Positions 23,635 through 63,774 of a stretch of 64,000 nucleotides of DNA are shown one piece after another (position 1 is the first letter of the stretch; every line of letters starts with the position of its first letter). The stretch comes from a virus. Lineage: Duplodnaviria > Caudoviricetes. The notes beneath the pieces were generated by a model, which saw only the letters and a program-made list of their open reading frames with translations, was not told the DNA's origin and did not search any database. The translations under genes were made by a program, and so were the position numbers. The DNA is taken from positions 238,582 to 302,581 of the IMG/VR virus record IMGVR_UViG_3300028591_000072. One strand, 5' to 3'.

Positions 23635-23705
23635 AGGCGGTTGGTGTAATGGTAACATAGAGGTCTCCAAAACCTTTGTTGAGGGTTCGAATCCTTCACC
23701 GCCTG
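23635..23705 (+). tRNA. tRNA-Trp(CCA)
   Basis: Full cloverleaf; gaggt-ctccaaa-acctt. Confidence 0.93.
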
Positions 23706-23713
23706 CAAATAAC

Positions 23714-23794
23714 GCTCGTTAGGTCGTATAGGGGATTAGTACACTATAAGCGGGACGCTAAGAAACACTGGTTCGAAACCAGTCCAAACGAGCA
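23714..23794 (+). ncRNA. tRNA-like RNA without a normal anticodon arm
   Basis: Extended acceptor gctcgttagg/ccaaacgagc, D arm, T arm actgg-ttcgaaa-ccagt; only agcg-gga-cgct in the anticodon region. Confidence 0.7.
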
Positions 23795-23799
23795 AAAAT

Positions 23800-23871
23800 G
23801 TTGATGTGGCCGAGTGGTTAGGTAATGCTCTGCAAAAGCATACGACATGGGTTCGAATCCCTTCATCAACT
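23800..23871 (+). tRNA. tRNA-Cys(GCA)
   Basis: atgct-ctgcaaa-agcat; U73. Confidence 0.93.
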
Positions 23872-23880
23872 CAAAAATAT

Positions 23881-23980
23881 GGAGGATGTGATGTAATGGT
23901 AGGCATAGCAGGGTAGACCTGTCGGGTGTAATAAATTGGCCATGAATAAGCCCGTGAAAGTTCGAATCTTTCCGCCTCCG
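23881..23980 (+). ncRNA. tRNA-Ser-like RNA with 5-nt anticodon loop and oversized variable arm
   Basis: ggagg/cctcc-g acceptor, gcagg-gtaga-cctgt, ~32-nt variable arm, intact T arm. Confidence 0.7.
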
Positions 23981-24001
23981 CAAAAAAAGTTCTTTGAAAA
24001 T

Positions 24002-24085
24002 GGGGTTGTAACCGGTAATTGGTAGCCGAAAGGTCTGTAAAACCTTTCCCTTTTGGGACTGGTGGTTCGAGTCCACCCAACCCCA
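24002..24085 (+). tRNA. tRNA-Tyr(GTA)
   Basis: aaggt-ctgtaaa-acctt; long variable arm. Confidence 0.92.
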
Positions 24086-24166
24086 CGAATGTTCAGGTAG
24101 CGCCTGACTGAGTGCAGTTATACATCACGGGGAATCTGCACGAGAAAAAAACAAAAGGTCCGTCAA

Positions 24167-24240
24167 CGGGGTGTGGTGCAGTTGGCTAGCACACGGCATT
24201 TGGGATGCTGAAGTCGTGGGTTCGAGTCCCGCCACTCCGA
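24167..24240 (+). tRNA. tRNA-Pro(TGG)
   Basis: cggca-tttggga-tgctg. Confidence 0.93.
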
Positions 24241-24295
24241 CTCAGGATGTCCACCGAGTAATGCAAGCATAGGTGGAAAATCGTCCTGAACGAAA

Positions 24296-24452
24296 GGTGC
24301 TCTGGCAGATATGGTATATGCACTGGACTGAATACAGAGTAAACTGTAAATCAAACTCTATAGTAATTCAGTTGGTAGAAACGTGAGTCGGTGGTTCGAG
24401 TCCGCCCTATAGAGCAAATCCAGCTAAAGTGGTTCGAGTCCACTGGGCACCA
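24296..24452 (+). tRNA. tRNA-Phe(GAA) interrupted by an 84-nt insert (24333-24416) containing a nested tRNA-like fold
   Basis: Removing 24333-24416 restores ctgga-ctgaaaa-tccag and a complete cloverleaf. Confidence 0.85.
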
Positions 24453-24543
24453 CAACTAAAATAACTAAATTGGTACAGATTAAAAAATAAAATTAAACGA
24501 CAATGATAAAACGAAAGTACATAAAACGAAAACATTTAAGTAG

Positions 24544-24616
24544 GCGCTCTTAGCTTAATTGGTAGAGCTACACACTCTTAATGTGGGGGTTGTGGGTTCG
24601 ATTCCCACAGGGCGCA
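24544..24616 (+). tRNA. tRNA-Lys(CTT)
   Basis: acaca-ctcttaa-tgtgg (27:43 mismatch). Confidence 0.9.
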
Positions 24617-24634
24617 CGAAAATAAAAACAAGAT

Positions 24635-24712
24635 GCGCTCGTAGCTCAGTTGGTAGATAGCACCACACTTTTAATGTGGGAGTCCTGGGTTCGAGTCCCA
24701 GCGGGCGCACCA
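24635..24712 (+). tRNA. tRNA-Lys(TTT)
   Basis: ccaca-cttttaa-tgtgg; encoded CCA. Confidence 0.93.
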
Positions 24713-24715
24713 AAA

Positions 24716-24787
24716 GCCCCAATGGTGTAACGGATAGCACTAAAGTCCACGGAACTTTTAGTGAGGGTTCAAATCCTTCTTGGGGTA
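24716..24787 (+). tRNA. tRNA-Arg(ACG) with C33
   Basis: aaagt-ccacgga-acttt. Confidence 0.85.
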
Positions 24788-24795
24788 CAAAAATC

Positions 24796-24812
24796 TGGCA
24801 CGGTTTTTGATA
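24796..24812 (+). promoter_or_regulatory. Sigma-54-like promoter followed by boxA-like gttctttgaaa
   Basis: TGGCACG-GTTT-TTGATA. Confidence 0.7.
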
Positions 24813-24844
24813 ATGTGCAATGGTTCTTTGAAAAAATGAAAAAA

Positions 24845-25371
24845 AATTCATTGTGCATAGGCGGGAAACCCCTATGTAGAATCTCCTAAATTCGGTGGAA
24901 ATCCTTTGGTGTGCTGGTTAAACTCCAGCCTTGTAGAAATACAAGAAGAGATTTGTCTGACTAGAAAGCACTAACCAATAATGTGTAAGGACTATACCGA
25001 GCGAAAATAAGATGTAAGGGTTGAATAAACAGGTCGGCACTTTAATATGTAGAACAGAAAGAGTGAATTACATCCACAGAAACTTACTATAAACTTATAA
25101 TCGTGTAGACTGAAATGGGAGATACCTAAGTTGATTTTAGCCTCATAGGAGTAATATTCGAGTAGGGAGTATAAACAGGCACTATGTCTGTCTCACTGAA
25201 AGAAGGCTATCTTGCAAGATTTCAATATGGTAATGTCAGTTAAGACTACAACAAGCATTTAGCTCCTTGGTTCGACTCCAAGGGATGCCTGTCACGTGTT
25301 GGAAAAGGTGTCATAAGTGGGTTCCACTTGTTTGGCTATGGTAACATAGTGTGGTAAATATCAATGTAATT
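24845..25371 (+). ncRNA. Exon-less group I intron-like RNA, copy 1
   Basis: P2, P3 (tctcc/ggaga), P4 (ttcggt/accgag), P5 (tcctt/aagga), P7 (gactg/cagtt), P8, P9.0 and P9 in canonical order; no interrupted host gene. Confidence 0.78.
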
Positions 25372-25378
25372 TATATAT

Positions 25379-25453
25379 GGCCCCGTAGCTCAATTGGATA
25401 GTAGCGACAGCCTTCTAAGCTGTAGGTTCTGGGTTCGACTCCCAGCGGGGTCA
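25379..25453 (+). tRNA. tRNA-Arg(TCT)
   Basis: acagc-cttctaa-gctgt. Confidence 0.93.
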
Positions 25454-25487
25454 CAAATTTAGTTCTTTGAAAAAATTGAAAAATACA

Positions 25488-26097
25488 AATTCATTGTGCA
25501 TAGGCGGGAAACCCCTATGTAGAATCTCCTAAATTCGGTGGAAATCCTTTACCTAGATATGAAAAGAAGTAGGAAAATTCATCCTAAGTTTCATTAATTT
25601 GAAATAGGTTCCGCAACACTAACAAATAATGTGTAAGGACTATACCGAGCGAAAATGAGAATAGAATGAAAAGCAAGTACAAGCAGAAGCAATTGCCTCC
25701 TTGTAGACTTCTTTATTTCTTTATATGATACTTATTGGTGGCAATTCGTAAGTATCATTTATTCTTATAAACGTGTAGAGACTGAACGGGAGATGCCTAA
25801 GTTGGAATTATATTAAGACGATGATAGCCCAGGATTCAAAAGAGCACCCATAATGAATGGGAGGTGGTTGGTATGAAATCCAACAATTCGTTGATAATAT
25901 TACTTGCAAGAATTTCAATATGGTAATGTCAGTCAAGACCACAATAAATAAACATACATGTCTAATGGTGAAGACAAGCGACTTGAAAAGAAAGGCTGAT
26001 GTCCGAGAGGAGACGCAAATGTGGCATTGATGTGGGTTCGATTCCCACTATGTTTGTTCGGCTATGGTAACATAGTGTGGTAAATATCAATGTAATT
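25488..26097 (+). ncRNA. Exon-less group I intron-like RNA, copy 2
   Basis: Same core blocks as copy 1 (64-nt and 45-nt identical ends), R-like gtagagactgaacgggag, different peripheral loops. Confidence 0.8.
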
Positions 26098-26105
26098 TAT
26101 ATATT

Positions 26106-26278
26106 ACTCCTATAGTTCAAGGGATAGAACGGAAGTTTCCTATACAAGAGTAAACTTGTTAAAATCAAAACTTCATGTTGGTGAAGATGGTCACACGTGC
26201 GTTAAAATGTCTACACGATGGTTCGAGTCCATCACATGAAGCAAACTTCTAATCTTGGTTCGAGTCCAAGTAGGAGTA
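26106..26278 (+). tRNA. tRNA-Arg(CCT) interrupted by a 101-nt insert (26143-26243) containing a nested tRNA-like fold
   Basis: Removing the insert restores gaagt-ttcctaa-acttc and a complete cloverleaf. Confidence 0.85.
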
Positions 26279-26305
26279 CAAAAAAAAATAACCAGATGAA
26301 AATTC

Positions 26306-26322
26306 TGGCACGGTCTTTGATA
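26306..26322 (+). promoter_or_regulatory. Sigma-54-like promoter
   Basis: TGGCACG-GTCT-TTGATA, 10 nt before a tRNA. Confidence 0.7.
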
Positions 26323-26332
26323 ATATTGCAAT

Positions 26333-26403
26333 GGTGATGTAGTCTAACGGTAGAACGGGGCTCTCATAAGGCCCATACGGAAGTTCAACTCTTCCCATCG
26401 CCA
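26333..26403 (+). tRNA. tRNA-Met or Ile2 (CAT)
   Basis: gggct-ctcataa-ggccc; identity not resolvable by eye. Confidence 0.85.
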
Positions 26404-26411
26404 CAAAACTT

Positions 26412-26428
26412 TGGCACGATTTTTGATA
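26412..26428 (+). promoter_or_regulatory. Sigma-54-like promoter
   Basis: TGGCACG-ATTT-TTGATA. Confidence 0.7.
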
Positions 26429-26518
26429 AGGAATGACTGCTGAGAAAAAATTTTGCAAAATATATTTGTTTTTTTCAAAAAAAAACTATATATTAGCAAC
26501 ATCAAAAGTTCTTTAAAA

Positions 26519-26637
26519 TAATGGTCAGGCAAGTCCAGGCAGCGTTTGGGTTGAGGTCGAAAAACTCCCCACCTTATATAGGTGTAATAATCCAGGTAGC
26601 TCAGACACAGAGATTAAAAAGGTGTTACTGACCATTA
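26519..26637 (+). ncRNA. Unknown end-paired structured RNA
   Basis: 10-bp terminal stem taatggtcag/ctgaccatta; flanked by two boxA-like sites. Confidence 0.6.
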
Positions 26638-26714
26638 AAGTTCTTTGACATATTGTGAAATCTGATAAAATACAAAAAATAAGGTTGTCTGTAGAGATAC
26701 ACACAACCTATTAC

Positions 26715-26802
26715 GGAGGGGTGCCGAAGTGGTCATAACGGCCTAGACTTGAAATCTTGTGTGCTCTTTACGGGCCCGTGGGTTCGAATCCCACCCCCTC
26801 CG
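26715..26802 (+). tRNA. tRNA-Ser(TGA)
   Basis: ctaga-cttgaaa-tcttg; long variable arm. Confidence 0.92.
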
Positions 26803-26819
26803 CAGTTGTAATTGAAATT

Positions 26820-26941
26820 TGGGATGTGGTGTAATGGTAGCACACGTAGCACTTTATGATTTCAGACACGGAATTTTACAGCAATTATTTTAGCGATGAA
26901 TTTGGGTTTCCGTGGTTTTGGTTCGATTCCAGACATCCCGA
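26820..26941 (+). ncRNA. tRNA-Pro(TGG) body with a 51-nt CAGCAA-handle insert (26847-26897)
   Basis: Removing the insert restores cggaa-tttgggt-ttccg; insert holds gatttc-agacac-ggaatt-ttacagcaa. Confidence 0.75.
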
Positions 26942-26951
26942 CTAATATGAT

Positions 26952-27035
26952 GGCCAAGTGTCGTAATTGGTAACCGAGCTGGTCTCAAAAACCAGTGGGC
27001 GAAAGCCCGTGTGGGTTCGAGTCCCACCTTGGCTA
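26952..27035 (+). tRNA. tRNA-Leu(CAA)
   Basis: ctggt-ctcaaaa-accag. Confidence 0.93.
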
Positions 27036-27077
27036 CAATGGTTAAAAACCAAATAATAATTAAATTAAAAATAAATT

Positions 27078-27692
27078 ATGAAGAGAATTTTATCAGTATT
27101 AATGATTGCTTTGATGGCAATTTCTTTGACATCTTGCGATTGGTTTAAAAAGAAAAACGACAATAAGAAAGAGATTGTTGTTGAAAATTTGGTTTCGGAA
27201 GATACCAAGTACATGGTAGAAAATTATGACACATGTTTTGTTTATTACGAGACACAAATTGTTTTAAATAACTATCTTGATGAGGAATGTGATGGTTCAT
27301 TTGAAAGTGTAACAAATATATTCCAAGGATATACACTTGTTGATAGCACGTTCCAACCTACAGTAGTTATTTTTGAACACATTGGAGATTCGTCAAGCAT
27401 TGAAAAGGTTAATGATGCATGGATGGAAGATATGGTAATGAAAAAAAATGACATTGCCATTTCATATAAGGATGCATTCAAATGTATGAACGAAGTAAAT
27501 TATCCAAAACCACACGCAAAGGCTTGTACTTTGAGAAAAGAAGTAGGACCTTGCCAAGCAAACGCCCAATATATTTTTGGTAACGTTGAATCACAATTGT
27601 ATGTTGATGCAATAACAGGCGATGTTTCACCAAATAGTCCAACATTCAGTTGTCTTGGCGCTGAAGAAAATGTTGAAGAAGTGGTCGAATAA
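27078..27692 (+). CDS. Lipoprotein
   Basis: Signal peptide with lipobox SLTSC; C-terminal LYVDAITGDV (PepSY-like). Confidence 0.8.
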   Translation: MKRILSVLMIALMAISLTSCDWFKKKNDNKKEIVVENLVSEDTKYMVENYDTCFVYYETQIVLNNYLDEECDGSFESVTNIFQGYTLVDSTFQPTVVIFEHIGDSSSIEKVNDAWMEDMVMKKNDIAISYKDAFKCMNEVNYPKPHAKACTLRKEVGPCQANAQYIFGNVESQLYVDAITGDVSPNSPTFSCLGAEENVEEVVE

Positions 27693-27711
27693 TGATTAAG
27701 AAATAAAAGTA

Positions 27712-27779
27712 GAAAACCTAACAGCAATTTTTAGTAAAAAATCAGAACTTTCACTTCCGACAATAACTAATGGTTTTCG
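27712..27779 (+). ncRNA. CAGCAA-handle RNA carrying a tRNA-Glu(TTC)-type anticodon stem-loop
   Basis: gaaaacc-taacagcaa ... tcagaa-ctttcac-ttccga ... ggttttc-g. Confidence 0.75.
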
Positions 27780-27846
27780 TTTTTAATAAAAGGTGACACT
27801 TTTAGGATTTTTTGCACACCGATAGACAAGGTAAAAATCCAAGTAA

Positions 27847-27999
27847 GCCTCTTTAGTATAAAGGTTATTACACTTGACTTGTACATCAGAAGGAACTGAT
27901 TAAAACCAAGCTATATTTGAAAGACAAAGCATATGCTGAAACAGCGATAGTTTCATATAGCTCAATCATGAGATGGCAGTTCGATTCTGCCAAGAGGCT
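27847..27999 (+). tRNA. tRNA-Thr(TGT) interrupted by an 81-nt insert (27884-27964) with tRNA-like geometry
   Basis: Removing the insert restores cttga-cttgtaa-tcatg; acceptor gcctctt/aagaggc. Confidence 0.8.
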
Positions 28000-28001
28000 C
28001 T

Positions 28002-28118
28002 AAAATCTTCGAGGGATTGATGCTTGGTTTAGTGTTTTGGTTACCTGACGAGGTAAACTGAGACAATAATAAGGAGTAAGAAGGAAGCATGCACTTGGCT
28101 TACTGTGTAGAAGATTTT
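28002..28118 (+). ncRNA. Unknown end-paired structured RNA
   Basis: aaaatcttc/gaagatttt; internal ttacct-gacg-aggtaa. Confidence 0.55.
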
Positions 28119-28123
28119 TTAAT

Positions 28124-28195
28124 GCGTTGTTAGTACAACGGTCAGTATATGGGCTTCCCAAGCCTAAGATGTCAGTTCGATTCTGATACAGCGCT
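28124..28195 (+). tRNA. tRNA-Gly(CCC)
   Basis: tgggc-ttcccaa-gccta. Confidence 0.92.
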
Positions 28196-28200
28196 CAAAT

Positions 28201-28344
28201 ACGGTGCGTAGTTTACGATATGGGTTTGACACGAACTGGAAGCATGGGCATCAGAGCCGTGCACGAAAGAGAATCAGGAGTGAAGCCTGACTAAACAACT
28301 ATATCAAAGAATGGTACGAAGACCTGGTGACAAGAACTCACCGT
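28201..28344 (+). ncRNA. Unknown end-paired structured RNA
   Basis: acggtg/caccgt; internal gcatgg/ccgtgc and tcagg/cctga. Confidence 0.55.
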
Positions 28345-28387
28345 TACTTGTTAAAAAAGGACCTCATCAGTAGTATCATTTAGATTT

Positions 28388-28469
28388 ACCTCAGTACCCG
28401 AACTGGTATAGGGACTACACTTAGGATGTAGCGGCTGAGCCACTGTGGGTTCGACTCCCACCTGGGGTA
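28388..28469 (+). tRNA. tRNA-Leu(TAG)
   Basis: ctaca-cttagga-tgtag. Confidence 0.92.
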
Positions 28470-28624
28470 CAAAAATAAATGGGTGAAGCTTTGTTATTGA
28501 AGCCATGGATTTTACCGTGAGAAGACGAATGTCCGCCCAAAAACACAGAGGAACTTGCCAAATTGATACTGTACAGCTTTTGGTAATAAGGATAAGTAGA
28601 CTCAGAAGGTTATATTCCTTATAT

Positions 28625-28696
28625 GCGGTGTTAGTACAACGGTTAGTATATCAGCTTGCCATGCTGAAGATGTCAGTTCGATTCTGATACACCGCT
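28625..28696 (+). tRNA. tRNA-Gly(GCC)
   Basis: tcagc-ttgccat-gctga. Confidence 0.93.
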
Positions 28697-28698
28697 CA

Positions 28699-28786
28699 AG
28701 GAAACATGCAGCAATCTTTCTCAGGTTGAAAATTTTGACTGTAAATCAAATAAGGTGGTTCGAGTCCACAAAAATATTGTTTCCTG
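28699..28786 (+). ncRNA. CAGCAA-handle RNA carrying a Tyr(GTA) anticodon stem-loop and a T arm
   Basis: aggaaac-atgcagcaa ... tttga-ctgtaaa-tcaaa, gtgg-ttcgagt-ccac ... gtttcct-g. Confidence 0.78.
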
Positions 28787-28793
28787 TTTTTAT

Positions 28794-28867
28794 GGGAGAG
28801 TAGCGTAGCTGGTTAGCGCAACGGACTGTTAATCCGTGGGTCGTGGGTTCGATTCCCACCTCTCCCG
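28794..28867 (+). tRNA. tRNA-Asn(GTT)
   Basis: acgga-ctgttaa-tccgt. Confidence 0.92.
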
Positions 28868-28872
28868 CTTGA

Positions 28873-29005
28873 AGAAATCTAACAGCAATTAATAAATTCG
28901 TTTGACTGTAAATCAAAAGGTTGTGGGTTCGAGTCCCGCTGTCGCCAAAGATTATATTAGTTGAAGGCGACATAGCTCAATGGTAGAGAAAGAAAATGAT
29001 TTCTG
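28873..29005 (+). ncRNA. CAGCAA-handle RNA enclosing a circularly permuted tRNA-Tyr(GTA)
   Basis: 3' part (28899-28947) precedes 5' part (28966-28988); acceptor ggcgaca/tgtcgcc; handle agaaatc-taacagcaa ... gatttct-g. Confidence 0.85.
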
Positions 29006-29035
29006 AGAAAAACAATGACGCTTAACCGTCAGAAC

Positions 29036-29188
29036 ATGTTTCTAAATTCATTAAAGATTTAGCGCACTTGTAGAGCGATAGGACTACACCTAAACCGAGG
29101 TGAGTGGTGAAGTACCGAGGAAGCTTTATTTGAAAGGTTACGAGCTCTTAAACAGATGATGGCATAGTTAAGAAGGTGCCATAAACAT
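29036..29188 (+). ncRNA. Unknown multi-hairpin RNA
   Basis: atgttt/aaacat closing stem; cacct/aggtg, atggcat/gtgccat, ctaaatt/gatttag. Confidence 0.5.
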
Positions 29189-29201
29189 TTCTTTTTAATA
29201 T

Positions 29202-29274
29202 GGGGGTATGGTTGAATGGCTACAATGCGGGCTTGTCACGCCCTGTGGTGCGGGTTCGAATCCCGTTATCCCCG
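29202..29274 (+). tRNA. tRNA-Asp(GTC)
   Basis: gggc-ttgtcac-gccc; G73. Confidence 0.9.
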
Positions 29275-29353
29275 CAATATTGGGGTTTCGAAAAAAAACG
29301 ATAAAATTGCGTATAATTTGGCTTTCGAAACTATTTATAATAAAACAAAGTTT

Positions 29354-30073
29354 ATGTGTGATGGTTTAAATTTTAAATGTAAACAGTGTGGCGTAACATT
29401 TGAAAAAACAAAGTCTGAGTTATCAAAAAACCATAATGTTGTTCCTGTCTTTTGTTCTAAAGACTGTCAACAAAAATGGTATAAAGAAAATTCGTATATA
29501 ACTGTAGAATGCAAATGTTGTGGAAAAGAATTTACAATAAAAAAAGGTGAATACAATAAAAATAAAAACAAAAACTTTTTTTGTTCACATTCTTGTGCTG
29601 CTAAATTTAATAATAAAACTAGAACAATAAAAAAAACTGTTTTTGAAAAAGATAACAAAATTAAAATATCTAAAAAGAAAGAAGATATATATGGTGTATG
29701 TCCAATTTGCGGAAATAAAAAATTTAAGAAATCAATATTGTGCAAAAAATGTAGAAACGAGCAAAAAAGAAATAACATAAAAAAGAGAACACTTGGATAT
29801 TTTATTGAAGGAAAAAAATATTTGGGTTCAAAATGTAATGAAATAAGAAAAGACGCAAAGAGAACAATTGAAGAAAGCTGTGTCGAAAAAACTTGTGCAT
29901 ATTGTCATAACCACGAGTTTGATGGCATATTAGAAGTACATCATATAAAAGGAATTTTGGAGTTTGATAAAAGCACGACAATAGAAGAAATAAATGATAT
30001 TAATAACCTTGTTTGGTTATGTCCAAATCATCACAGGATGCTTGAACTTGGATTAATTAAACTTGAAAAATAG
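29354..30073 (+). CDS. HNH homing endonuclease with zinc-finger repeats
   Basis: CxxC...FCS..C repeats; LEVHHI...NLVWLCPNHH; start moved to 29354 because the longer frame overlaps tRNA-Asp and ACTATTTAT lies at 29330. Confidence 0.85.
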   Translation: MCDGLNFKCKQCGVTFEKTKSELSKNHNVVPVFCSKDCQQKWYKENSYITVECKCCGKEFTIKKGEYNKNKNKNFFCSHSCAAKFNNKTRTIKKTVFEKDNKIKISKKKEDIYGVCPICGNKKFKKSILCKKCRNEQKRNNIKKRTLGYFIEGKKYLGSKCNEIRKDAKRTIEESCVEKTCAYCHNHEFDGILEVHHIKGILEFDKSTTIEEINDINNLVWLCPNHHRMLELGLIKLEK

Positions 30074-30079
30074 ATTAAA

Positions 30080-30209
30080 AGGAATTTAACAGCAAGTTAC
30101 AATAGGTAAACACATTTGTAAACAAAACAAAGATTGTTGGTTCGAGTCCAACTGCGGCTTTAGGGGAACCGATGGCTGCATAGTGAAATGGAAGATAAAT
30201 AGATTCCTG
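30080..30209 (+). ncRNA. CAGCAA-handle RNA with permuted T arm / closed acceptor stem / degenerate D arm (YrlA-like order)
   Basis: aggaatt-taacagcaa ... gttgg-ttcgagt-ccaac, tgcggct...ggctgca, tagtgaaatgg ... gattcct-g. Confidence 0.75.
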
Positions 30210-30338
30210 TAATCTAAAAAATATAAGGAAAGAAGGACACACGTACCTTAAACAAGTACGAAAAGTTAGTGCTGGCCACATAAAGTCGCCAAGCGTCTCA
30301 GGGTGGATGCACGATAGTGAAATGTAAATTTCTTAGAT

Positions 30339-30411
30339 GGGGAGTTCATTTAGCGGTTTAGGATGCAGGTTCGACAGACCTGTCACTATGGTTCGATTCC
30401 ATAACACCCCA
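30339..30411 (+). tRNA. Atypical tRNA, nominal Val(GAC), with C33 and G38
   Basis: caggt-tcgacag-acctg; one acceptor mismatch; body resembles Glu/Gln/Asp-type tRNAs. Confidence 0.6.
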
Positions 30412-30415
30412 CAAT

Positions 30416-30650
30416 CGGTTTGTTGTTGATAATCAAAGGAAAGTTGAGTTGGACATGGGTTCGAGTCCCATATGGTCCACTAAGTAATTGATTTTCAAGT
30501 AAATACGGGCCATCTTGGTTTTGACAGCTAATGAGTACAATGGAAGTAGACATCCGAGATGCCATAAAATAACTGGCAACGAAAATTATGCTTATGCTTA
30601 TGCAGCAGCCTAAGGCAGTGCATTGAGCAGGTTGGCAGCGAACCAAATCG
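30416..30650 (+). ncRNA. ssrA: Circularly permuted (two-piece) tmRNA
   Basis: Acceptor piece gac-atggg-ttcgagt-cccat-atggtcc-a ends at 30479, before the coding piece gggccat-cttggttttgacag at 30507; G3:U70; tag ataact-GNENYAYAYAAA* (30575-30613). Confidence 0.9.
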
Positions 30651-30658
30651 CTGCACAT

Positions 30659-30734
30659 GGTCGGTTCGTCTAGTCTGGCCTAGGACATCAGGTTTTCATC
30701 CTGGGAATCATGGGTTCAAATCCCATACCGACTA
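30659..30734 (+). tRNA. tRNA-Glu(TTC)
   Basis: tcagg-ttttcat-cctgg. Confidence 0.92.
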
Positions 30735-30740
30735 CATCCA

Positions 30741-30945
30741 GATAACTACAAATCTGCATTGGCAAAGTTGCTTTCCATAACAATGTGCAACCAGTTTCAG
30801 CGTTTCAACTGTAAAAATGCGAGATTTTTATTTGTTTGGCTAAACGAAAACAAATCCTTATAGTTGGTATATTGGTAAAAAAGGCGGAATGGTAGATAAC
30901 CGTTTTTATCCAACATTTATGGCGATTCATGATGTAGCCATAAAA
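30741..30945 (+). ncRNA. Unknown multi-hairpin RNA(s)
   Basis: gttgc/gcaac, cagtt/aactg, atttgtt/aacaaat, aaaggcgg/ccgttttt, tttatggc/gccataaa. Confidence 0.5.
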
Positions 30946-30946
30946 T

Positions 30947-31020
30947 CGGCCTGTAGCTCAGTTGGTTAGAGCATCACACTGATAATGTGGGGGTCGGTGG
31001 TTCGAGTCCACCCTGGCCGA
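30947..31020 (+). tRNA. tRNA-Ile(GAT)
   Basis: tcaca-ctgataa-tgtgg. Confidence 0.93.
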
Positions 31021-31077
31021 CAAAATTTACAAATTTATTTGTTCTTTTAAAAAATAGTTTGTATATTTAAAATAAAG

Positions 31078-31210
31078 AAAGTAAAAATCCCACCAAGGGC
31101 GAAACAATTGGTGGTTAGTTCTATCCCGTTAGTAATCACGGTCACAAGGTAGGAGATAAAGAACTGTAAGAGGCTCAGAAGTCGGATGACAAGAAACGAT
31201 AGTTCACTTT
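31078..31210 (+). ncRNA. Unknown structured RNA
   Basis: aaagt/acttt ends; ccaccaa/ttggtgg, agttct/agaact; follows a tttgtatattt promoter-like motif. Confidence 0.5.
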
Positions 31211-31216
31211 CTAAAT

Positions 31217-31290
31217 GGGCCCATGCCTTCAATTGGTACAGGACCGCCTTTGCACGGCGACATTTATCGGTTCGAATCCGATTGGGTCCA
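31217..31290 (+). tRNA. tRNA-Ala(TGC)
   Basis: cgcc-tttgcac-ggcg; G3:U70. Confidence 0.9.
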
Positions 31291-31309
31291 CATCTTTATT
31301 ATTATTATA

Positions 31310-31455
31310 ATATGAAGATGGTAGCGCCACAACGTAACGTAATTGGTCCCTGATGTTCTTCAAACCAATTCCCTATCGTAGTTAGGGTAAAGTCTTTACA
31401 CGAGTTTCTATAATACGAAAGCCAAAATGTACAGTTTATGTCGGAAGAAACTCTT
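31310..31455 (+). ncRNA. Unknown multi-hairpin RNA
   Basis: aattggt/accaatt, cccta/taggg, gagtttct/agaaactc. Confidence 0.45.
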
Positions 31456-31461
31456 TATAAT

Positions 31462-31586
31462 GCCAAGGTAGCTCAGTGGTTTAGAGCAATGGGAGTGTAT
31501 AAATGATTTTTGATTAAAAATCTAACAGCAACTTCCAAATACCTATGTAAACCCATTGGTCGGAGGTTCGAATCCTTCTCTTGGCT
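31462..31586 (+). ncRNA. tRNA body (Thr-like acceptor, loop remnant tgtaaa) with the CAGCAA handle inserted in the anticodon loop
   Basis: Intact acceptor, D and T arms; atggg/cccat stem encloses gattttt-gatt-aaaaatc-taacagcaa. Confidence 0.78.
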
Positions 31587-31594
31587 CAAAAAAT

Positions 31595-31671
31595 GCATGT
31601 ATGAAAGCAGACGGGATGTGCTTCTGTCGTAATTCGGACAGGATATGTTGGTTCGAATCCAACTGCATGCG
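31595..31671 (+). ncRNA. tRNA-like RNA with 8-nt non-canonical anticodon loop
   Basis: gcatgta/tgcatgc, 5-bp D stem aagca/tgctt, ctgtc-gtaattcg-gacag, canonical T arm. Confidence 0.7.
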
Positions 31672-31676
31672 CAATA

Positions 31677-31751
31677 GGAAAACATACAGCAAGTTTTATC
31701 AAATTCAAGTTACAATCTTTTAAATTGTGGGACTAAATTTTTTGTTTTCCG
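31677..31751 (+). ncRNA. CAGCAA-handle RNA carrying a tRNA-Lys(TTT) anticodon stem-loop
   Basis: ggaaaac-atacagcaa ... acaat-cttttaa-attgt ... gttttcc-g. Confidence 0.8.
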
Positions 31752-31756
31752 TTTAT

Positions 31757-31838
31757 GGGGAAGTGGTGGAACTGGTAGACACGTATGCCCAAGGAGCATA
31801 TGCCGAAAGGCGTGTGGGTTCAACTCCCACCTTCCCTA
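31757..31838 (+). tRNA. tRNA-Leu(AAG) with C33
   Basis: tatgc-ccaagga-gcata; Leu-type D loop and variable arm. Confidence 0.82.
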
Positions 31839-31846
31839 CTTAAAAT

Positions 31847-31917
31847 GCCTTGTTAGTTTAGTGGTAGAATGATACCCTCGTAAAGTATAGACGATGGTTC
31901 GATTCCATCACTTGGCT
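31847..31917 (+). tRNA. tRNA-Thr(CGT)
   Basis: atacc-ctcgtaa-agtat; two U:U mismatches in acceptor stem. Confidence 0.75.
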
Positions 31918-31949
31918 CAATATTTTTAAAAGAAAAAATTATATTAATT

Positions 31950-32189
31950 ATGAAGAAATTATTTTTAACAATTGCTTTTGTTTTTGCATTGCTTACGGGC
32001 TGTTTTGCACAAAGTGGTGATGTATTATTCCAAAAAGAAACGGTTATTTATGAAAGTAATGAAAAGTTTGGTCCTGGACTTCCAGGACATGGACAAAGTG
32101 GTAATCAGTCAGCACCTATTGGTGCCGGAACTGTCTTGCTGATTGGCTTTGGTGCTGCTTATGCAATGTACAAGAAAAACAAAAAGTAA
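31950..32189 (+). CDS. Small exported protein with C-terminal sorting-signal-like anchor
   Basis: Signal peptide, Gly/Pro linker, APIGAG + TM + KKNKK, resembling Bacteroidetes PID-CTERM/PEP-CTERM-type tails. Confidence 0.7.
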   Translation: MKKLFLTIAFVFALLTGCFAQSGDVLFQKETVIYESNEKFGPGLPGHGQSGNQSAPIGAGTVLLIGFGAAYAMYKKNKK

Positions 32190-32215
32190 AAAAACTCAAT
32201 ACTAACGAGTATAAA

Positions 32216-32461
32216 GACAGGCGTACAGCCAGAGGCGTAAACGGTAGCAGTAAGTGCTAAACTGTTAAAATAAAGGCAATAAGGGAGAGGTAACGTTACT
32301 CCTTAAAACTAGCGAATTTCAAGTAGATTCATGGATTATCGAAAGGCTTTAGAAATGTTAAGGAAAAAGACCTTATGCCAGCGAATGAGAACCACATCGG
32401 TTATGTGGCGCACGATGAAACGTGTGGGCTGAAAAAGTGCCAGGGTTCAACTCCACTTGTC
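32216..32461 (+). ncRNA. Unknown ~245-nt structured RNA
   Basis: gacagg/cttgtc ends; T-loop-like ggttcaactcc near the 3' end; ccacat/atgtgg, taagg/cctta, cacg/cgtg. Confidence 0.55.
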
Positions 32462-32482
32462 ATTTTAGGAAATCCATTTTAC

Positions 32483-32557
32483 GGTGTATATAGTGTCAGT
32501 GGTCTAGCACGGTAGATTGTGATTCTACAAGCCTCAGTTCGAACCTGAGTATACACC
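32483..32557 (+). tRNA. tRNA-His(GTG)
   Basis: G-1:C73; gtaga-ttgtgat-tctac. Confidence 0.93.
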
Positions 32558-32615
32558 CGCTAATTTCGACTTTACTTTTTCACCCTTTTTACTATTTATG
32601 TATAAAAGTGGTTTT

Positions 32616-33290
32616 ATGAAAGAAAAAGAAATAGATAAAATAAGCGTGGAACAAATAAACGAAGCTTTTGAAAAGTGTGGTAATCTTAAAGAAGTTGTTT
32701 TTTATTTTGGAAAAAAATACAATGGCGGAAGTCAACGATTTGTATATGCTTTAATGGAAAAAGCCGGAATAAAGTATTCTGATTTTTTCAAAAAAGGGAA
32801 AGAGTATTATAAAAAAAATGTAAAGTATTGTGAAAATTGTGGAAAAGAATTGCCATATGAAAAAAGGAATAATAAATTTTGTTCTTCTTCTTGTGCAGCA
32901 TCTAAAAACAATCTTGGGGTAAGAAGAAACTTTAATCCAAATAAACCAATAATACAAACAAAAGAAGAAAAAGAAAGACTGAAGTTGGAAAGATGGAAGA
33001 ATGGAGAAAATTTTTTAGTTGGCTCTTGTGAAATACCAGTTTTTATAAGAAGATATTTGTTCAGTAAAAACGAATGTAAATGTGAGCGATGTGGGTGGGG
33101 TGAAATAAATGAGGACACAGGAAAAATTCCGTTGCAAATACATCACATAGATGGTGATTGCACAAACAACAAAGAAGAAAATTTACAACTACTTTGTCCA
33201 AATTGTCATAGTTTGACTAACACATTTGGTTCGTTGAACAAAAAGTCAAAAAGATTCCATAGAAAAAAGAAAACTTTAAAAGATATATAG
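32616..33290 (+). CDS. HNH homing endonuclease
   Basis: CENCG...FCSSSC; CERCG...LQIHHIDGD..NN..ENLQLLCPNCHS; start 32616 preferred because the 32598 ATG overlaps the promoter motif. Confidence 0.88.
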   Translation: MKEKEIDKISVEQINEAFEKCGNLKEVVFYFGKKYNGGSQRFVYALMEKAGIKYSDFFKKGKEYYKKNVKYCENCGKELPYEKRNNKFCSSSCAASKNNLGVRRNFNPNKPIIQTKEEKERLKLERWKNGENFLVGSCEIPVFIRRYLFSKNECKCERCGWGEINEDTGKIPLQIHHIDGDCTNNKEENLQLLCPNCHSLTNTFGSLNKKSKRFHRKKKTLKDI

Positions 33291-33516
33291 CAAGTACAGA
33301 CCACTTAGTAGCGTCCAGGGTAAGTCATAGAAGTATCAGCTGTATGTCTATGGCGTAGTCACGGGATTCAAAGCAATCTCACAGCCTGGTGAACGGTGTC
33401 AGTTACCGTGAGGTGCTGTAAGGTGCAACGCAACAGAAGAATAAAATCTAAAATAGATAATGCAATCCTCGTTTAGCCGAGGTTTCTTTAGTCCGTAGCT
33501 CGTAAATTTACTTGCT
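33289..33516 (+). ncRNA. Unknown ~228-nt structured RNA
   Basis: agcaagta/tacttgct ends; gtcataga/tctatggc, acagc/gctgt enclosing acggt/accgt, cctcg/cgagg. Confidence 0.6.
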
Positions 33517-33522
33517 TTTTAT

Positions 33523-33608
33523 GGAGGGATACCCAAGTTGGTGAAGGGGACAGATTGCTAATCTGTTAGGCCTTTATAGGCGCATGGGTTCGAGTCCCAT
33601 TCCCTCCG
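33523..33608 (+). tRNA. tRNA-Ser(GCT)
   Basis: acaga-ttgctaa-tctgt; long variable arm. Confidence 0.93.
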
Positions 33609-33612
33609 CAAT

Positions 33613-33781: not shown

Positions 33782-33812
33782 AAAAAAAGCCCCTAATAAT
33801 CGGGGCTTTTTT
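33782..33812 (+). terminator. Intrinsic terminator closing the RNA island
   Basis: aaaaaaagcccc-taataatc-ggggctttttt. Confidence 0.85.
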
Positions 33813-53831: not shown

Positions 53832-54701
53832 TTATTTTTCAACTACATTGATATAATGTTCGTTTTCTTCTTTTTTGCATCTATCAAGTAATTGCTCGTA
53901 ATTGAATTCTTTGGATTTGTTTTTTGATGATTTAACAAACACCAAAAACATTGAAGTATAACTTCGTGAATGGATTTGTCCTGATTTGTATTTACCAGGT
54001 GAAATTAATCTTGCCTTTGCAAGTAACGTAAACTTATCAATCATTTTAAGTCCAAGTCTTTGAGCTGCCATAAAACTAAATTCTTCAACATTGTGCCTAA
54101 TTCCACCTGAAATCATGGATTGGCATTTGAAAATGCAAATTCCATTATCTTTAAGAACACGACTTGCTTCTGATAACCAATGATAATAAGATAAATACAA
54201 GTTATCAACAGGATAATATGCAGAAAAACGTTTATAAATCAAGCTTGCGCCTTCTTTGTTTGATTTTGCAGATGGTGCATTTTGTGGAGAAATTACAAAC
54301 GGTAGGTCAATAACCAATGAATGTATTGAATTATTTTCAATTGGCAATGCCCCCCATTTTTGGATTTCAATAATATCGTCTCTTGTTGGGCAAACATCCA
54401 TAAGGATTTTGGGTTCAGGAATGCTATAAGCATATCCATGACCTTTGTTATAGAATCCAAGAGAACTTGCAGTCATATCAGCATCAAATTGGTCTGAGCC
54501 ATTGTTATATAGCATCCCAATGTTATGGAGAATTTCTGTTTGGTCATATGAGAAATTTTTGATAATATTTGAATTATTCAATTTTTTCTCGTAATTTTCT
54601 TTATTTCCAATAATGATATTATCATCCATTGAGATTTCTTCATCAAAAAGAGGCTCATCATAGAGTTCTTCATTAAATTCAAGTTTAAATTGTTCATTCA
54701 T
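53832..54701 (-). CDS. Putative DNA amino-methyltransferase
   Basis: DADMTAS.LGFY, SLVIDLPF (DPPF variant), EASRVLKDNGICIFKCQ. Confidence 0.72.
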   Translation of the reverse strand: MNEQFKLEFNEELYDEPLFDEEISMDDNIIIGNKENYEKKLNNSNIIKNFSYDQTEILHNIGMLYNNGSDQFDADMTASSLGFYNKGHGYAYSIPEPKILMDVCPTRDDIIEIQKWGALPIENNSIHSLVIDLPFVISPQNAPSAKSNKEGASLIYKRFSAYYPVDNLYLSYYHWLSEASRVLKDNGICIFKCQSMISGGIRHNVEEFSFMAAQRLGLKMIDKFTLLAKARLISPGKYKSGQIHSRSYTSMFLVFVKSSKNKSKEFNYEQLLDRCKKEENEHYINVVEK

Positions 54702-55908
54702 AATATTTTAGTCTTGCTTCTATTAACAGTTTATTAATCATTTCATAATTAGGCCTTTCAGGAAGTGTACAATGTTTAATTGCCTCTTCCATTTCTTCTT
54801 TTTCTTTGTTAGCCTGAGCCATGATTTCATCATATTCAAGTTTATGGTTTTTAATTGAAAGAAGATATTCACGGTCATATGTGCGTTCAACATTGAACCC
54901 TTGGCCAAGTGCAAGTTCCTTACCCATTCTAGTAAGTCTCATACAGTGGCACATATTTTTACCATCATAGTTTTGGCCAAGATTACTCTTGTATCTTTCA
55001 GGGTTACGTTTTGCTTCCCATTCCTTATATTCCTTATATTCACGGCAATGAACAACATAGCCATCTTTGTTGTATGTCATTGTACAAATAGGTGTTTCGT
55101 ATTTCGGAATTGAACAAAGTCTTACATCGTTTGATTCATCAATGTTATCTGGGTTTACAATGCCAGGATATTTAAAATAATTGTTTATAAAAAGTCTTGA
55201 GTTACAATCCATAAGAGATATTGTTTTAAACTTTTCAAAATAGCCCATATCATTGCACCAGTTATTGAAATCATATAGTCCATATTTATCTTTATCAACA
55301 AATTCAAATTTGAAATATGCAGCAAAGTCGTAATAAACGCCATATGTGCAATTCATATTTGGGATATTGACAAGACCGCAATATTTTTGGTCAAGGTTAT
55401 TCTCTTTAAGCCATTCTTTCATTGGCTGAGAACCCTGTCCTTTAAATGTATAACAGAAATCAAGGACATCTTTTCTTTCGTAAATAGGGTTAACGATTTT
55501 CTTGTTAAGTCCACGAGCTTTACCAATTTGTGAAACTGCATAGCCAGTAAGAGTTTTAAAACATTCTTTTGAAAGAAACATATCTCTATGGTCAATAATA
55601 TATTGAACCATAGGATGTACTTCACCTACAATGCAGCGCTTTGGAATGAAAAGAGATTCCATAGCAGTAGGATTTGACTTTATAAGAAGTTCAACCCATC
55701 GTCCAAATTCATAGAATACTGTGTCATTCTTTTCATCAGCGACTTGTTCAATGTAACTGCCTCTAAGTCCGTAAAGCATTTCTTTTGGGCAAATGAAAAC
55801 GCCGCCATGGTCTTCATCAGATGTCGGGGTGTTAAGCCCATAAGCGTGTGAGCCTCTAATATACTCAAACGCAATCATTCCGCTATTTCTAAGTTCTTCA
55901 ATTGTCAT
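54694..55908 (-). CDS. RlaP/YcgL-like pol-beta nucleotidyltransferase
   Basis: RGSHAYGLNTPTSDEDHGGVF, NPT..E.L, GYA..Q, YDGKNMCHCMRL. Confidence 0.85.
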   Translation of the reverse strand: MTIEELRNSGMIAFEYIRGSHAYGLNTPTSDEDHGGVFICPKEMLYGLRGSYIEQVADEKNDTVFYEFGRWVELLIKSNPTAMESLFIPKRCIVGEVHPMVQYIIDHRDMFLSKECFKTLTGYAVSQIGKARGLNKKIVNPIYERKDVLDFCYTFKGQGSQPMKEWLKENNLDQKYCGLVNIPNMNCTYGVYYDFAAYFKFEFVDKDKYGLYDFNNWCNDMGYFEKFKTISLMDCNSRLFINNYFKYPGIVNPDNIDESNDVRLCSIPKYETPICTMTYNKDGYVVHCREYKEYKEWEAKRNPERYKSNLGQNYDGKNMCHCMRLTRMGKELALGQGFNVERTYDREYLLSIKNHKLEYDEIMAQANKEKEEMEEAIKHCTLPERPNYEMINKLLIEARLKYYE

Positions 55909-61896: not shown

Positions 61897-62461
61897 CTCT
61901 GTATTTTTTAAGTTCTTCTTTATATTCCACATCAAAAAAATGTCTCATTTTTGGGCATCTTCCATTATAGCATATTTCGCAATCGTGATGCCATCCTGAA
62001 GGAAGTGATGTCAAAGGAACTTTTTCTGTGCAAGAATTGCATGGATTATGCTCTTCGACCCATTTATCAAATGGTTTCATTCTTTCGATTTCTTGCTTTA
62101 TTCTTTCTTCTCTTTCGTCATTTTCCTTTATTATTCTTTCTCTTGTCTCCGCATTAAGTATGTGCTTTGGCGCAACACCCCACCATTTGCTTTCAAAGTG
62201 AAGATTCTTGAGGTCTAAGTTTCTTGTTTCGTCAGACGGTGCATTAATATAATCGCCATACTCAGTCATATATGAAATGATTTCGTATATATGAAACATA
62301 AGCCCCTCACTATCAATTTGCTCATATACTTCGCCATCTTTATTTTCAGCATGTACATCATACATTGGCTCACTATAGCCTACATTTGTTACTTCGATTT
62401 TTATGTTTCTATCATACCCGAATGAACACAATAAAAGGGTCAAAACATCTTTTCCGCTCAT
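61886..62461 (-). CDS. Hypothetical protein with Cys-rich C-terminus
   Basis: 191-aa ORF in operon. Confidence 0.65.
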   Translation of the reverse strand: MSGKDVLTLLLCSFGYDRNIKIEVTNVGYSEPMYDVHAENKDGEVYEQIDSEGLMFHIYEIISYMTEYGDYINAPSDETRNLDLKNLHFESKWWGVAPKHILNAETRERIIKENDEREERIKQEIERMKPFDKWVEEHNPCNSCTEKVPLTSLPSGWHHDCEICYNGRCPKMRHFFDVEYKEELKKYRDGK

Positions 62462-63774
62462 TTTACTACAATATTTTTTAGTTTAATGTCTTTAATAATT
62501 TCAACGCATTCGTCTCTTGTGATTTTTGGATTCATGAATGCACATTCAAGCAAATGGTCAATTATTGTTTTTACTTCTTTACATGGGCCAATACCACGGA
62601 TTTCCATAATATCATTACCGTTGACAGGGAGTTTGTATCCAATCATTTCCTCAATGTCAATTGTCTTGAGAAAATTAAAAACCCAACTTCCGTCTTTTAG
62701 TCTTGGGAATGATTTTGCAATTGCAACAATGTGGTTGAAGTCTTCAATCGTGTCGCATTCATAAGCAATCTCACGGATTTTGCTTCCAAGTTTCCACTTA
62801 CAAGCAAGTTCAAGCGGAAATGCTTTCATTGCATAGAAGTTGACTTTGTTGATAATATCGTTTGAGTACTTGAATTCCTTTAGGAACTTGTTTCTCTGCT
62901 TTCCTTCGCAATACCAATTTTGAACAAATGCGCCAAGAACAGTTTCAAGGTCGTAGTTGTATTTCTCAACAATCTCCAATACAGATTCAAATGCACCTTC
63001 TTTTGCAGCCTCATTTTTTTCTCCGTTTTCATAAGTGAACAGGTACGGTGTAATAGTATCGAAAAAGCCAATATCATTAAGATAACTCAATCCAATATAT
63101 GGATGTCCAGACATCAGAATCTTGTTGAATTCATCGGTGATTCGCTCTTGAGAAATGATTTTAAGGCGTTCAATGTTCCTTTTCATTGCCTCGAACACAT
63201 CATTGTCAATAAGGAAACCAAGTTTTGCTGAAAACCTTGCGGCTCTTAACAGTCTCAATGGGTCCTCATTGAATATTTCATCAGGAGAAGAACATGTGTT
63301 GATAAGTCCTTTTTCAAGGTCATCAAAGCCTCTACCAGTCAAGTCAAGGTCTTCATCCTTTGAAATGTTGTGGTACAATGAATTGATAGTAAAATCCCTA
63401 CGGAAACAATCGTCATTGATTGTTCCGAATGCTGTTTCAGGGTTACGGCTATTCTTGTCTCTATATGTTTCCTTTCTTGTGTGAACAGTTTCAATCTCTT
63501 CATCAGGAAACTCTTTGAGTTTGAACATGGCAGTACCGAAGTTCTCATATACAACTACAGAACCGTTTGTATAACCATTTGATTCAAGCCATTTTGCAAA
63601 ACGGATTCCACCATCCATAAGGTCAACAACAATGTCAATATCCTTGATTGCATCTGAGCCAAGATGTTTGTCTCGCTCACAACCTCCAACAGAATATACA
63701 TGGCCATCGAATTCAGTGCCATTGACAATGTTCTTGATATAATTTAATATTTCGTAATAAGTTTCAATTCTCAT
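62458..63774 (-). CDS. cca: CCA tRNA nucleotidyltransferase (class II)
   Basis: VGGCERD, DIDI, RRDFTINS, EDPLRLLRAARF, SQERITDEF; most tRNA genes here lack encoded CCA. Confidence 0.88.
   Translation of the reverse strand: MRIETYYEILNYIKNIVNGTEFDGHVYSVGGCERDKHLGSDAIKDIDIVVDLMDGGIRFAKWLESNGYTNGSVVVYENFGTAMFKLKEFPDEEIETVHTRKETYRDKNSRNPETAFGTINDDCFRRDFTINSLYHNISKDEDLDLTGRGFDDLEKGLINTCSSPDEIFNEDPLRLLRAARFSAKLGFLIDNDVFEAMKRNIERLKIISQERITDEFNKILMSGHPYIGLSYLNDIGFFDTITPYLFTYENGEKNEAAKEGAFESVLEIVEKYNYDLETVLGAFVQNWYCEGKQRNKFLKEFKYSNDIINKVNFYAMKAFPLELACKWKLGSKIREIAYECDTIEDFNHIVAIAKSFPRLKDGSWVFNFLKTIDIEEMIGYKLPVNGNDIMEIRGIGPCKEVKTIIDHLLECAFMNPKITRDECVEIIKDIKLKNIVVK

What the first reader, a model, noticed from the sequence alone, without database searches (positions are those of the whole stretch)
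26820..31751. Seven-member modular RNA family: covarying 7-bp stem + WWRCAGCAA handle fused to tRNA parts (Y RNA-like)
Seen: [stem]-WWRCAGCAA...[stem']-G at 27712 (gaaaacc/ggttttc), 28699 (aggaaac/gtttcct), 28873 (agaaatc/gatttct), 30080 (aggaatt/gattcct) and 31677 (ggaaaac/gttttcc). The same handle occurs in inverted order, as a hairpin, inside two tRNA bodies (26858-26885, 31505-31531). Compensatory changes keep the stem while CAGCAA is invariant. Every member has tRNA-derived cargo. Known: bacterial YrlA Y RNAs join a Ro60/TROVE-binding terminal stem to a tRNA-like module in the order T arm, closed acceptor stem, D arm; copies 28873 and 30080 show that order, although the handle is not the Ro60 site I recognise. 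Inference: a protein-binding handle that displays interchangeable tRNA modules, i.e. a programmable RNP for RNA repair, decoying or tethering. No TROVE gene is visible in this window.
Basis: partly seen in the sequence, partly recalled or inferred. Interest (0 to 1): 0.92.

Follow-up and report, generated by a model that had tools for sequence, protein, structure and literature searches.

The report
tRNA-mimic RNAs sharing a protein handle
A giant rumen phage hides seven small RNAs among its tRNA genes; each joins one conserved "handle" to tRNA look-alike parts with swappable anticodons, and they are probably the RNA partners of a Ro60-shaped protein, a pairing I could not find described in the papers I could search.

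Summary
Observation confirmed. All seven copies are at the stated places (0.3 expected). Genome-wide the motif has the stem in 8/8 copies inside tRNA clusters and 0/64 outside. The 7-bp stem covaries; CAGCAA is unpaired and conserved. The family is widespread: it lies within 4 kb of a DUF2828/DUF7788 gene in 66 of 158 phage and cellular loci, and that protein's model matches Ro60 structures best. Cargo is mostly an anticodon arm (here Pro, Glu, Tyr x3, Lys, a degenerate Cys). It is swapped between related phages (one slot: Tyr, Ser, Gly, Phe) and independently of the acceptor stem, so these are display RNAs, not translating tRNAs. Best reading: a Y-RNA-like particle with its own binding site that presents anticodon arms, probably against tRNA-cutting nucleases. 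It works like YrlA but fails YrlA membership (no GNCGAA motif, 27 of 69 bits). Caveats: no partner gene in this 82%-complete contig or the three nearest partial relatives; binding, discrete transcripts and function are not shown; one key paper could not be read. This scan has noted the same family before on other DNA (at least 64 genomes).

The parts
26820..26941 (+). tRNA-shaped RNA; handle as hairpin (26858-26875) plus motif (26876-26884) inserted after tRNA position 28; Pro-UGG anticodon loop at 26901-26907
   Evidence: orthologues 94-98% identical and paralogues with other bodies and anticodons
27712..27779 (+). Minimal member: 7-bp handle stem and motif enclosing a Glu-UUC anticodon arm (27743-27759, 4 of 5 pairs)
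   Evidence: orthologue in L013/L014
28699..28786 (+). Handle in place of the acceptor stem; D-like hairpin, Tyr-GUA anticodon arm (28734-28750), T arm. Same slot carries Ser, Gly or Phe arms in relatives
28873..29005 (+). Permuted form: handle, Tyr-GUA anticodon arm (28901-28917), T arm, acceptor stem closed by a linker (28940-28972), D arm; break at tRNA position 24/25
   Evidence: YrlA model 26.8 of 69 bits
30080..30209 (+). Permuted form: handle, Cys-derived arm with degenerate loop (30115-30131), T arm, closed acceptor stem (30153-30180), D arm split in the D loop
31462..31586 (+). tRNA-shaped RNA; handle as 7-bp hairpin (31505-31522) plus motif (31523-31531) inserted after position 31; Tyr-GUA-like loop at 31545-31551
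31677..31751 (+). Minimal member: 7-bp handle stem and motif enclosing a Lys-UUU anticodon arm (31712-31728)
23635..33609 (+). Host cluster: 25 ARAGORN tRNA calls and a permuted tmRNA, all on the strand of the seven RNAs
   Evidence: covered by identical contigs in a sheep-gut RNA library
54694..55908 (-). RlaP-family nucleotidyltransferase (RNA repair context, link to the RNAs inferred only)
62458..63774 (-). CCA-adding / poly(A) polymerase family enzyme (context, link inferred only)

Best explanation
The seven elements are small non-coding RNAs cut from the tRNA-cluster transcript. The handle (a 7-bp helix closed by Y-G, followed by unpaired RCAGCAA) is the binding site for a DUF2828/DUF7788 protein, a distant Ro60-like ring (helical repeats plus vWA). 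The handle works in either permutation, as a terminal clamp or as an inserted hairpin, so one protein can hold many RNAs. What the RNAs present is an anticodon arm, alone or on a tRNA-shaped body that cannot decode properly. The particle most likely acts in the conflict over tRNA: it offers bait to, or stages repair after, host anticodon nucleases, and the anticodon is swapped as hosts change. Shown: sequence, structure by covariation, cargo swapping, gene linkage, protein fold. Inferred: processing, binding (about 0.75), anticodon-nuclease role (about 0.4).
For: Stem 70/70 cells paired, 4 of 7 pairs with double changes, 0/500 shuffles reach the covariation score, slid controls 29-56%; 59 distinct stems, arms of different stems cross-pair in only 75 of 3302 trials. 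Near DUF2828 genes, motif hits chosen without regard to stem have one in 100/317 cases on the gene strand and 7/127 on the other; eight of nine altered motifs give 2-8%; 66/158 loci carry a handle. Of four relatives found by a neighbouring gene and rated complete, three have both protein and handle and one has neither. AlphaFold model pLDDT 92; the top 13 Foldseek hits are all Ro60/TROVE, TM up to 0.57. Slot 28699 shows Tyr, Ser, Gly, Phe arms with paired stems under a near-constant handle; one acceptor strand carries six anticodons and 14/37 loops have A32. Lys-UUU is the commonest arm (12 calls vs 1.4 in shuffles); tRNA-Lys and tRNA-Tyr are known targets of PrrC and retron-Eco7 (PMC11555353). 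RtcB lies beside the protein gene in 9 cellular loci.
Against: No DUF2828, TROVE, RtcB or Rnl2-type ligase gene in this contig, none at the position where relative G021 has DUF2828, and no DUF2828 in the three nearest relatives, which are 29-56% complete. The contig is incomplete (82%; another assembly runs past its end), so absence is not proven. Many family members have no tRNA cargo. Known phage rescue from these nucleases uses translating tRNAs, not decoys (PMC11555353). No binding or transcript-end data.
Confidence: 0.6

Rival explanations
1. Same particle, YrlA-like job: the RNA tethers the ring to a nuclease or ligase (as Y RNA tethers Rsr to PNPase) and the tRNA parts only stabilise it or dock on tRNA-binding proteins; anticodon identity does not matter.
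For: Ro60-like fold; YrlA-like T-acceptor-D order in 28873 and 30080; phage Ro60-Yrl recruits host PNPase (PMC12135203); the 30080 loop is degenerate among close strains; cargo-less members exist.
Against: The smallest members keep only an anticodon arm with a canonical loop (27712, 31677); swapped arms keep paired stems and 7-nt loops.
Confidence: 0.2
2. The handle is a splicing signal: a protein-dependent intron removed from interrupted tRNAs, and used to join the halves of permuted tRNAs (as in archaeal bulge-helix-bulge splicing).
For: Removing the insert restores a 5-bp anticodon stem and 7-nt loop in 37 members, 33 of them broken after position 28 or 29, nearly always 8-13 nt after the motif; 26820 gives a tRNA-Pro, and rejoined 28873 a tRNA-Tyr cloverleaf.
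Against: Break points differ among the window's copies (24/25, D loop, 28/29, 31/32); products would be mischarged or non-decoding (six anticodons on one acceptor strand, A32 in 14/37, degenerate 30080 loop); the phage has intact Pro-UGG, Tyr-GUA and Cys-GCA genes; three copies have no exons to join; RNA-library contigs run through all seven unspliced and no joint at a handle is listed (contigs show presence only, and 87 joints were not shown).
Confidence: 0.12
3. In this phage the RNAs are orphans or serve a host or co-infecting phage's protein, because its lineage lost the DUF2828 gene; or the handle is a cis-acting processing or autoregulatory site.
For: No partner gene in this contig or three nearest relatives; minimal handles often sit directly upstream of the DUF2828 gene.
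Against: Handles are intact in all close strains while their cargo changes; about 18% of the genome is missing, and relatives keep the gene among homologues of genes from both contig ends.
Confidence: 0.08

Closest known systems
YrlA / YrlB / Yrn1 Y RNAs with Rsr (bacterial Ro60); Rfam RF02553; Chen et al. 2014, PMC4201824
   Same: Terminal stem plus conserved motif near the 5' end; tRNA-like module in the order T arm, closed acceptor stem, D arm (28873, 30080); several RNAs per locus; linked gene with Ro60 fold; RtcB nearby in some bacteria.
   Different: Motif is RCAGCAA, not GNCGAAN0-1G; protein is DUF2828/DUF7788, 11-15% identical to Ro60; anticodon arm is kept and varied; handle also occurs as an inserted hairpin in unpermuted tRNA bodies; seven to nine copies scattered in tRNA clusters.
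Thermus phage phiLo Ro60 with Yrl1/Yrl2 (PMC12135203; PDB 9KOP, 9L5Y)
   Same: Phage-encoded Ro60-fold ring with neighbouring partner RNAs; among the top fold matches.
   Different: Uses a CGAA motif; true TROVE family; two RNAs; 'CAGCAA' does not occur in the paper's main text.
Phage tRNAs that neutralise anticodon nucleases (PrrC, retron-Eco7 PtuAB, PARIS; PMC11555353, PMC11464382, PMC10264068)
   Same: Same anticodons feature (Lys-UUU, Tyr-GUA); same genomic setting.
   Different: Those are translating tRNAs; these RNAs lack or mismatch the acceptor arm and carry a protein handle.
Archaeal non-canonical tRNA introns and permuted tRNA genes (from own knowledge)
   Same: Inserts in the D and anticodon arms; 3' half before 5' half.
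   Different: No bulge-helix-bulge seen at the joints by eye; products would not be proper tRNAs; exon-less members exist.

Membership tests
YrlA (RF02553) | Scores above the Rfam gathering threshold (69 bits) | tested here: not met
   Best 26.8 bits at 28895-29024; 34.7 bits for a relative
YrlA (RF02553) | GNCGAAN0-1G Rsr-binding motif near the 5' end | tested here: not met
   Absent from all seven, as is GGUCCGA (definition from PMC4201824)
YrlA (RF02553) | tRNA-like domain in the order T arm, closed acceptor stem, D arm | tested here: met
   Met by 28873 and, with a split D arm, 30080 only; not by the other five
YrlA (RF02553) | Encoded within 4 kb of a TROVE-domain gene on the same strand | tested here: not met
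   No PF05731 hit in the contig (contig 82% complete)
Y RNAs in the wide sense (Ro60-bound RNAs) | Stem formed by the 5' and 3' ends carrying a conserved protein site | tested here: met
   Covarying 7-bp stem and conserved unpaired motif; five copies terminal, two as internal hairpins
Y RNAs in the wide sense (Ro60-bound RNAs) | Linked gene for a Ro60-fold protein | tested here: inconclusive
   Met across the family; not found in this incomplete contig
Y RNAs in the wide sense (Ro60-bound RNAs) | Physically bound by the Ro60 protein; accumulates as a discrete RNA | not testable with these tools
   Only assembled RNA-library contigs were available
Translating tRNA with intron, or permuted tRNA | Removal or rejoining gives a full cloverleaf | tested here: met
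   26820 and 28873 cleanly; 30080 and 31462 with non-canonical loops
Translating tRNA with intron, or permuted tRNA | Anticodon matches acceptor identity and loop is canonical | tested here: not met
   Six anticodons on one acceptor strand; A32 in 14/37
Translating tRNA with intron, or permuted tRNA | Spliced product exists | tested here: inconclusive
   Unspliced contigs present, no listed joint at a handle; contigs cannot show absence
Any other Rfam 15 family (skipping-rope, ROOL, GOLLD etc.) | Match at gathering score or a credible E-value | tested here: not met
   Only tRNA and permuted tmRNA reach threshold
Non-coding RNAs of Rot/TROVE and Band-7 repair modules (Burroughs and Aravind 2016, PMC5062991) | Identity with the RNAs described there | not testable with these tools
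   Paper not held; only cited in PMC7824862

The most novel reading that the evidence does not exclude
A programmable anti-defence particle: one Ro60-like protein holds a library of RNAs whose anticodon arms are swapped like cassettes to match the host's tRNA-cutting nucleases, acting as decoys or as spare parts for tRNA repair.
Probability: 0.3. Interest if true: 0.9.

Novelty: new variant of a known kind. Interest (0 to 1): 0.7.

Why it matters
It would add a second, independent Ro60/Y-RNA-like system with its own RNA code, give a function to DUF2828/DUF7788 (hundreds of phage and bacterial copies, plant homologues), and explain many odd 'broken tRNAs' in jumbo-phage clusters. Anticodon swapping makes a direct test possible of whether non-translating tRNA mimics help phages against tRNA-cutting immunity, and of what the tRNA-like module of Y RNAs is for, an open question in PMC4201824.

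Tried and rejected
Chance match: rejected. Skipping-rope and other Rfam motifs: no hit. Sigma-70 promoter or terminator role: promoter counts are at chance and no site is tied to the handles. Partner gene in the own contig: Pfam TROVE and DUF2828, two custom profiles and a MIDAS motif scan found nothing; RtcB and Rnl2-type ligase also absent. Closing the genome gap through relatives and other assemblies failed: G012 reaches only about 6 kb past our start, other contigs under 100 bases past our end. The first fold on 5 sequences was poor (pLDDT 57) and was not used. Sequence search of PDB gave only E about 0.1 hits, all Ro60/TROVE. RNA runs X3-X12 have small shares and X13 is a relative; no habitat or expression claim rests on them. 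Depth from contigs cannot rank expression; lack of cover beyond 33750 in X1 is only a hint. My recollection of a 'band-aid RNA' name was not confirmed. Reviews PMC10870794 and PMC6047535 were not held. No complex prediction was run: the tool cannot score RNA partners.
Full report
Setting. The window is the last 64 kb of a 302,581-base linear virus record, 82% complete. The finding lies in a cluster of 25 tRNA calls and a permuted tmRNA at 23635-33609. Near-identical sequence is held by a sheep-gut metatranscriptome.

Observation. Seven hits in 4.9 kb compare with 0.30 expected; with a stem required, 0.0045. Over the whole contig, all 8 WWRCAGCAA hits inside the two tRNA clusters have the stem and none of the 64 outside do. 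The eighth copy and a ninth, imperfect one lie in a second cluster outside the window and have orthologues in a relative. Rfam has no family for the element; YrlA scores 26.8 of 69 bits.

Structure. On ten permuted-form members RNAalifold predicts the 7-bp stem unprompted: 70 of 70 cells paired, four pairs with double changes, 0 of 500 shuffles as high, slid controls 29-56%. These sequences are related and were partly picked by their stems, so I added tests that do not select on the stem. Among motif hits near DUF2828 genes, 100 of 317 on the gene strand have a stem against 7 of 127 on the other strand; eight altered motifs give 2-8%, while a ninth, which relaxes the W two bases before C, gives 25%, showing that the true consensus is wider. 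Fifty-nine distinct stems were collected, every position uses several pair types, and the closing pair is C-G or U-G (my filter required a pyrimidine and a G there). Arms from different stems pair in only 75 of 3302 crosses.

Anatomy. The handle comes in two circular permutations. As a clamp it encloses a bare anticodon arm (27712 Glu-UUC, 31677 Lys-UUU), a tRNA without acceptor stem (28699), or a permuted tRNA (28873, 30080). As a hairpin it is inserted in the anticodon arm of an unpermuted body (26820, 31462). In 37 hairpin-form members with a full stem, taking the insert out restores a 5-bp anticodon stem with a 7-nt loop, broken after position 28 or 29 in 33. Tandem arrays in Lachnospiraceae show how the forms interconvert: the 3' half of one unit and the 5' half of the next give the clamp form (inference).

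Cargo is swapped. The 28699 slot carries Tyr-GUA here, Ser-UGA and Gly-UCC in close strains and Phe-GAA in another, each with a paired stem, while the handle hardly changes. One acceptor strand carries six different anticodons, and 14 of 37 loops have A at position 32. The phage has intact Pro, Tyr, Cys, Glu and Lys tRNA genes. So the RNAs display anticodon arms but are unlikely to translate. Lys-UUU is the commonest arm. tRNA-Lys and tRNA-Tyr are targets of PrrC and retron-Eco7 (PMC11555353).

Partner. A handle-only DNA pattern retrieved 19 viral loci; 6 of 18 searchable records and 3 of 4 complete ones encode a DUF2828-like protein. Among relatives found by neighbouring genes, three of four complete genomes have both protein and handle and the fourth has neither (two further complete records in that tally were found through the protein itself and also carry the motif). 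Conversely 66 of 158 DUF2828 loci carry a handle within 4 kb; a stricter clamp-only count gave 40 on the gene strand, 4 on the other and at most 4 for scrambled motifs. These loci are not independent, since many are kin. The protein (DUF2828 plus DUF7788) models at pLDDT 92 and its 13 best structural matches are all Ro60/TROVE proteins. RtcB, NAD-salvage and tyrosyl-tRNA synthetase genes recur nearby.

The gap in the case. This contig has no such gene, not even at the place where relative G021 has it, and the three nearest relatives, all fragments, lack it too. The contig is cut short, and relatives keep the gene among homologues of genes from both contig ends, so it may lie in the missing part. 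This is unresolved.

Expression. Contigs from RNA run X1 cover six of the seven elements end to end without a difference (26836-29023, 29444-30449, 31020-31730; the last stops inside 31677), in unspliced form, and cover fades beyond the terminator-like hairpin near 33790. This fits a precursor transcript but DNA carry-over is not excluded, and contigs cannot show ends.

Mechanism. Most likely the RNAs are cut from the cluster transcript, bound at the handle by the Ro60-like ring, and present anticodon arms as bait for or in repair after host anticodon nucleases (overall 0.6; binding about 0.75, anticodon-nuclease role about 0.4). Rivals: a YrlA-like tether with indifferent cargo (0.2), a splicing signal (0.12), orphan or cis-acting elements (0.08).

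Known and new. It works like YrlA with Rsr (PMC4201824) and phage phiLo Ro60 with Yrl1/2 (PMC12135203) but fails YrlA membership on score, motif and partner family. Literature searches found no description. Burroughs and Aravind 2016, which covers Rot/TROVE partner RNAs, could not be read, so prior mention there is not excluded. The scan's own notes report the same family in at least 64 genomes; they are not independent support, and I re-tested the main claims here. Verdict: real, a new variant of the Ro60/Y-RNA kind, interest 0.7.

Noticed in passing
window 24296-24449 and 26107-26280: tRNA-Phe(GAA)- and tRNA-Arg(CCU)-like bodies each carry an 85-100 nt insert just after the anticodon: a short hairpin with an AGUAAA loop, then a nested mini-tRNA. 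The Phe insert is conserved in relative G012 with a different nested part. A similar AGU...GUAAA sequence flanks the handle in 31462.
   Followed up: partly
window about 24850-25377 and 25490-26105: Two group-I-intron-like elements (by eye; no Rfam hit) with a T-arm-like hairpin inside, not interrupting a gene. Look-alike contigs reach summed depths of thousands in three rumen RNA runs, against about 15 for the rest of the cluster; much of this may come from relatives.
   Followed up: no
window 30390-30704: Permuted (two-piece) tmRNA, tag GNENYAYAYAAA, directly downstream of member 30080.
   Followed up: no
window 29216-30073 and 32598-33290: Two HNH endonuclease genes inside the tRNA cluster; close strains lack the first, so that 28873 and 30080 are near neighbours there.
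   Followed up: partly
window 27078-27692: 204-aa ORF with a signal-peptide-like start inside the cluster, no Pfam hit, 54% identical copy in G012.
   Followed up: partly
window 23283, 26410 and about 29 places in the contig: Recurrent TTTGGCAYG motif ahead of genes and tRNAs, probably a phage promoter element.
   Followed up: no
window 32180-32480: Unannotated structured non-coding stretch with raised RNA-library depth in run X3 (458-610).
   Followed up: no
L204, L213, L229, L230 (Lachnospiraceae), upstream of DUF2828: Tandem arrays of three to four handle-bearing tRNA-shaped RNAs in cellular genomes; culturable hosts for experiments.
   Followed up: partly
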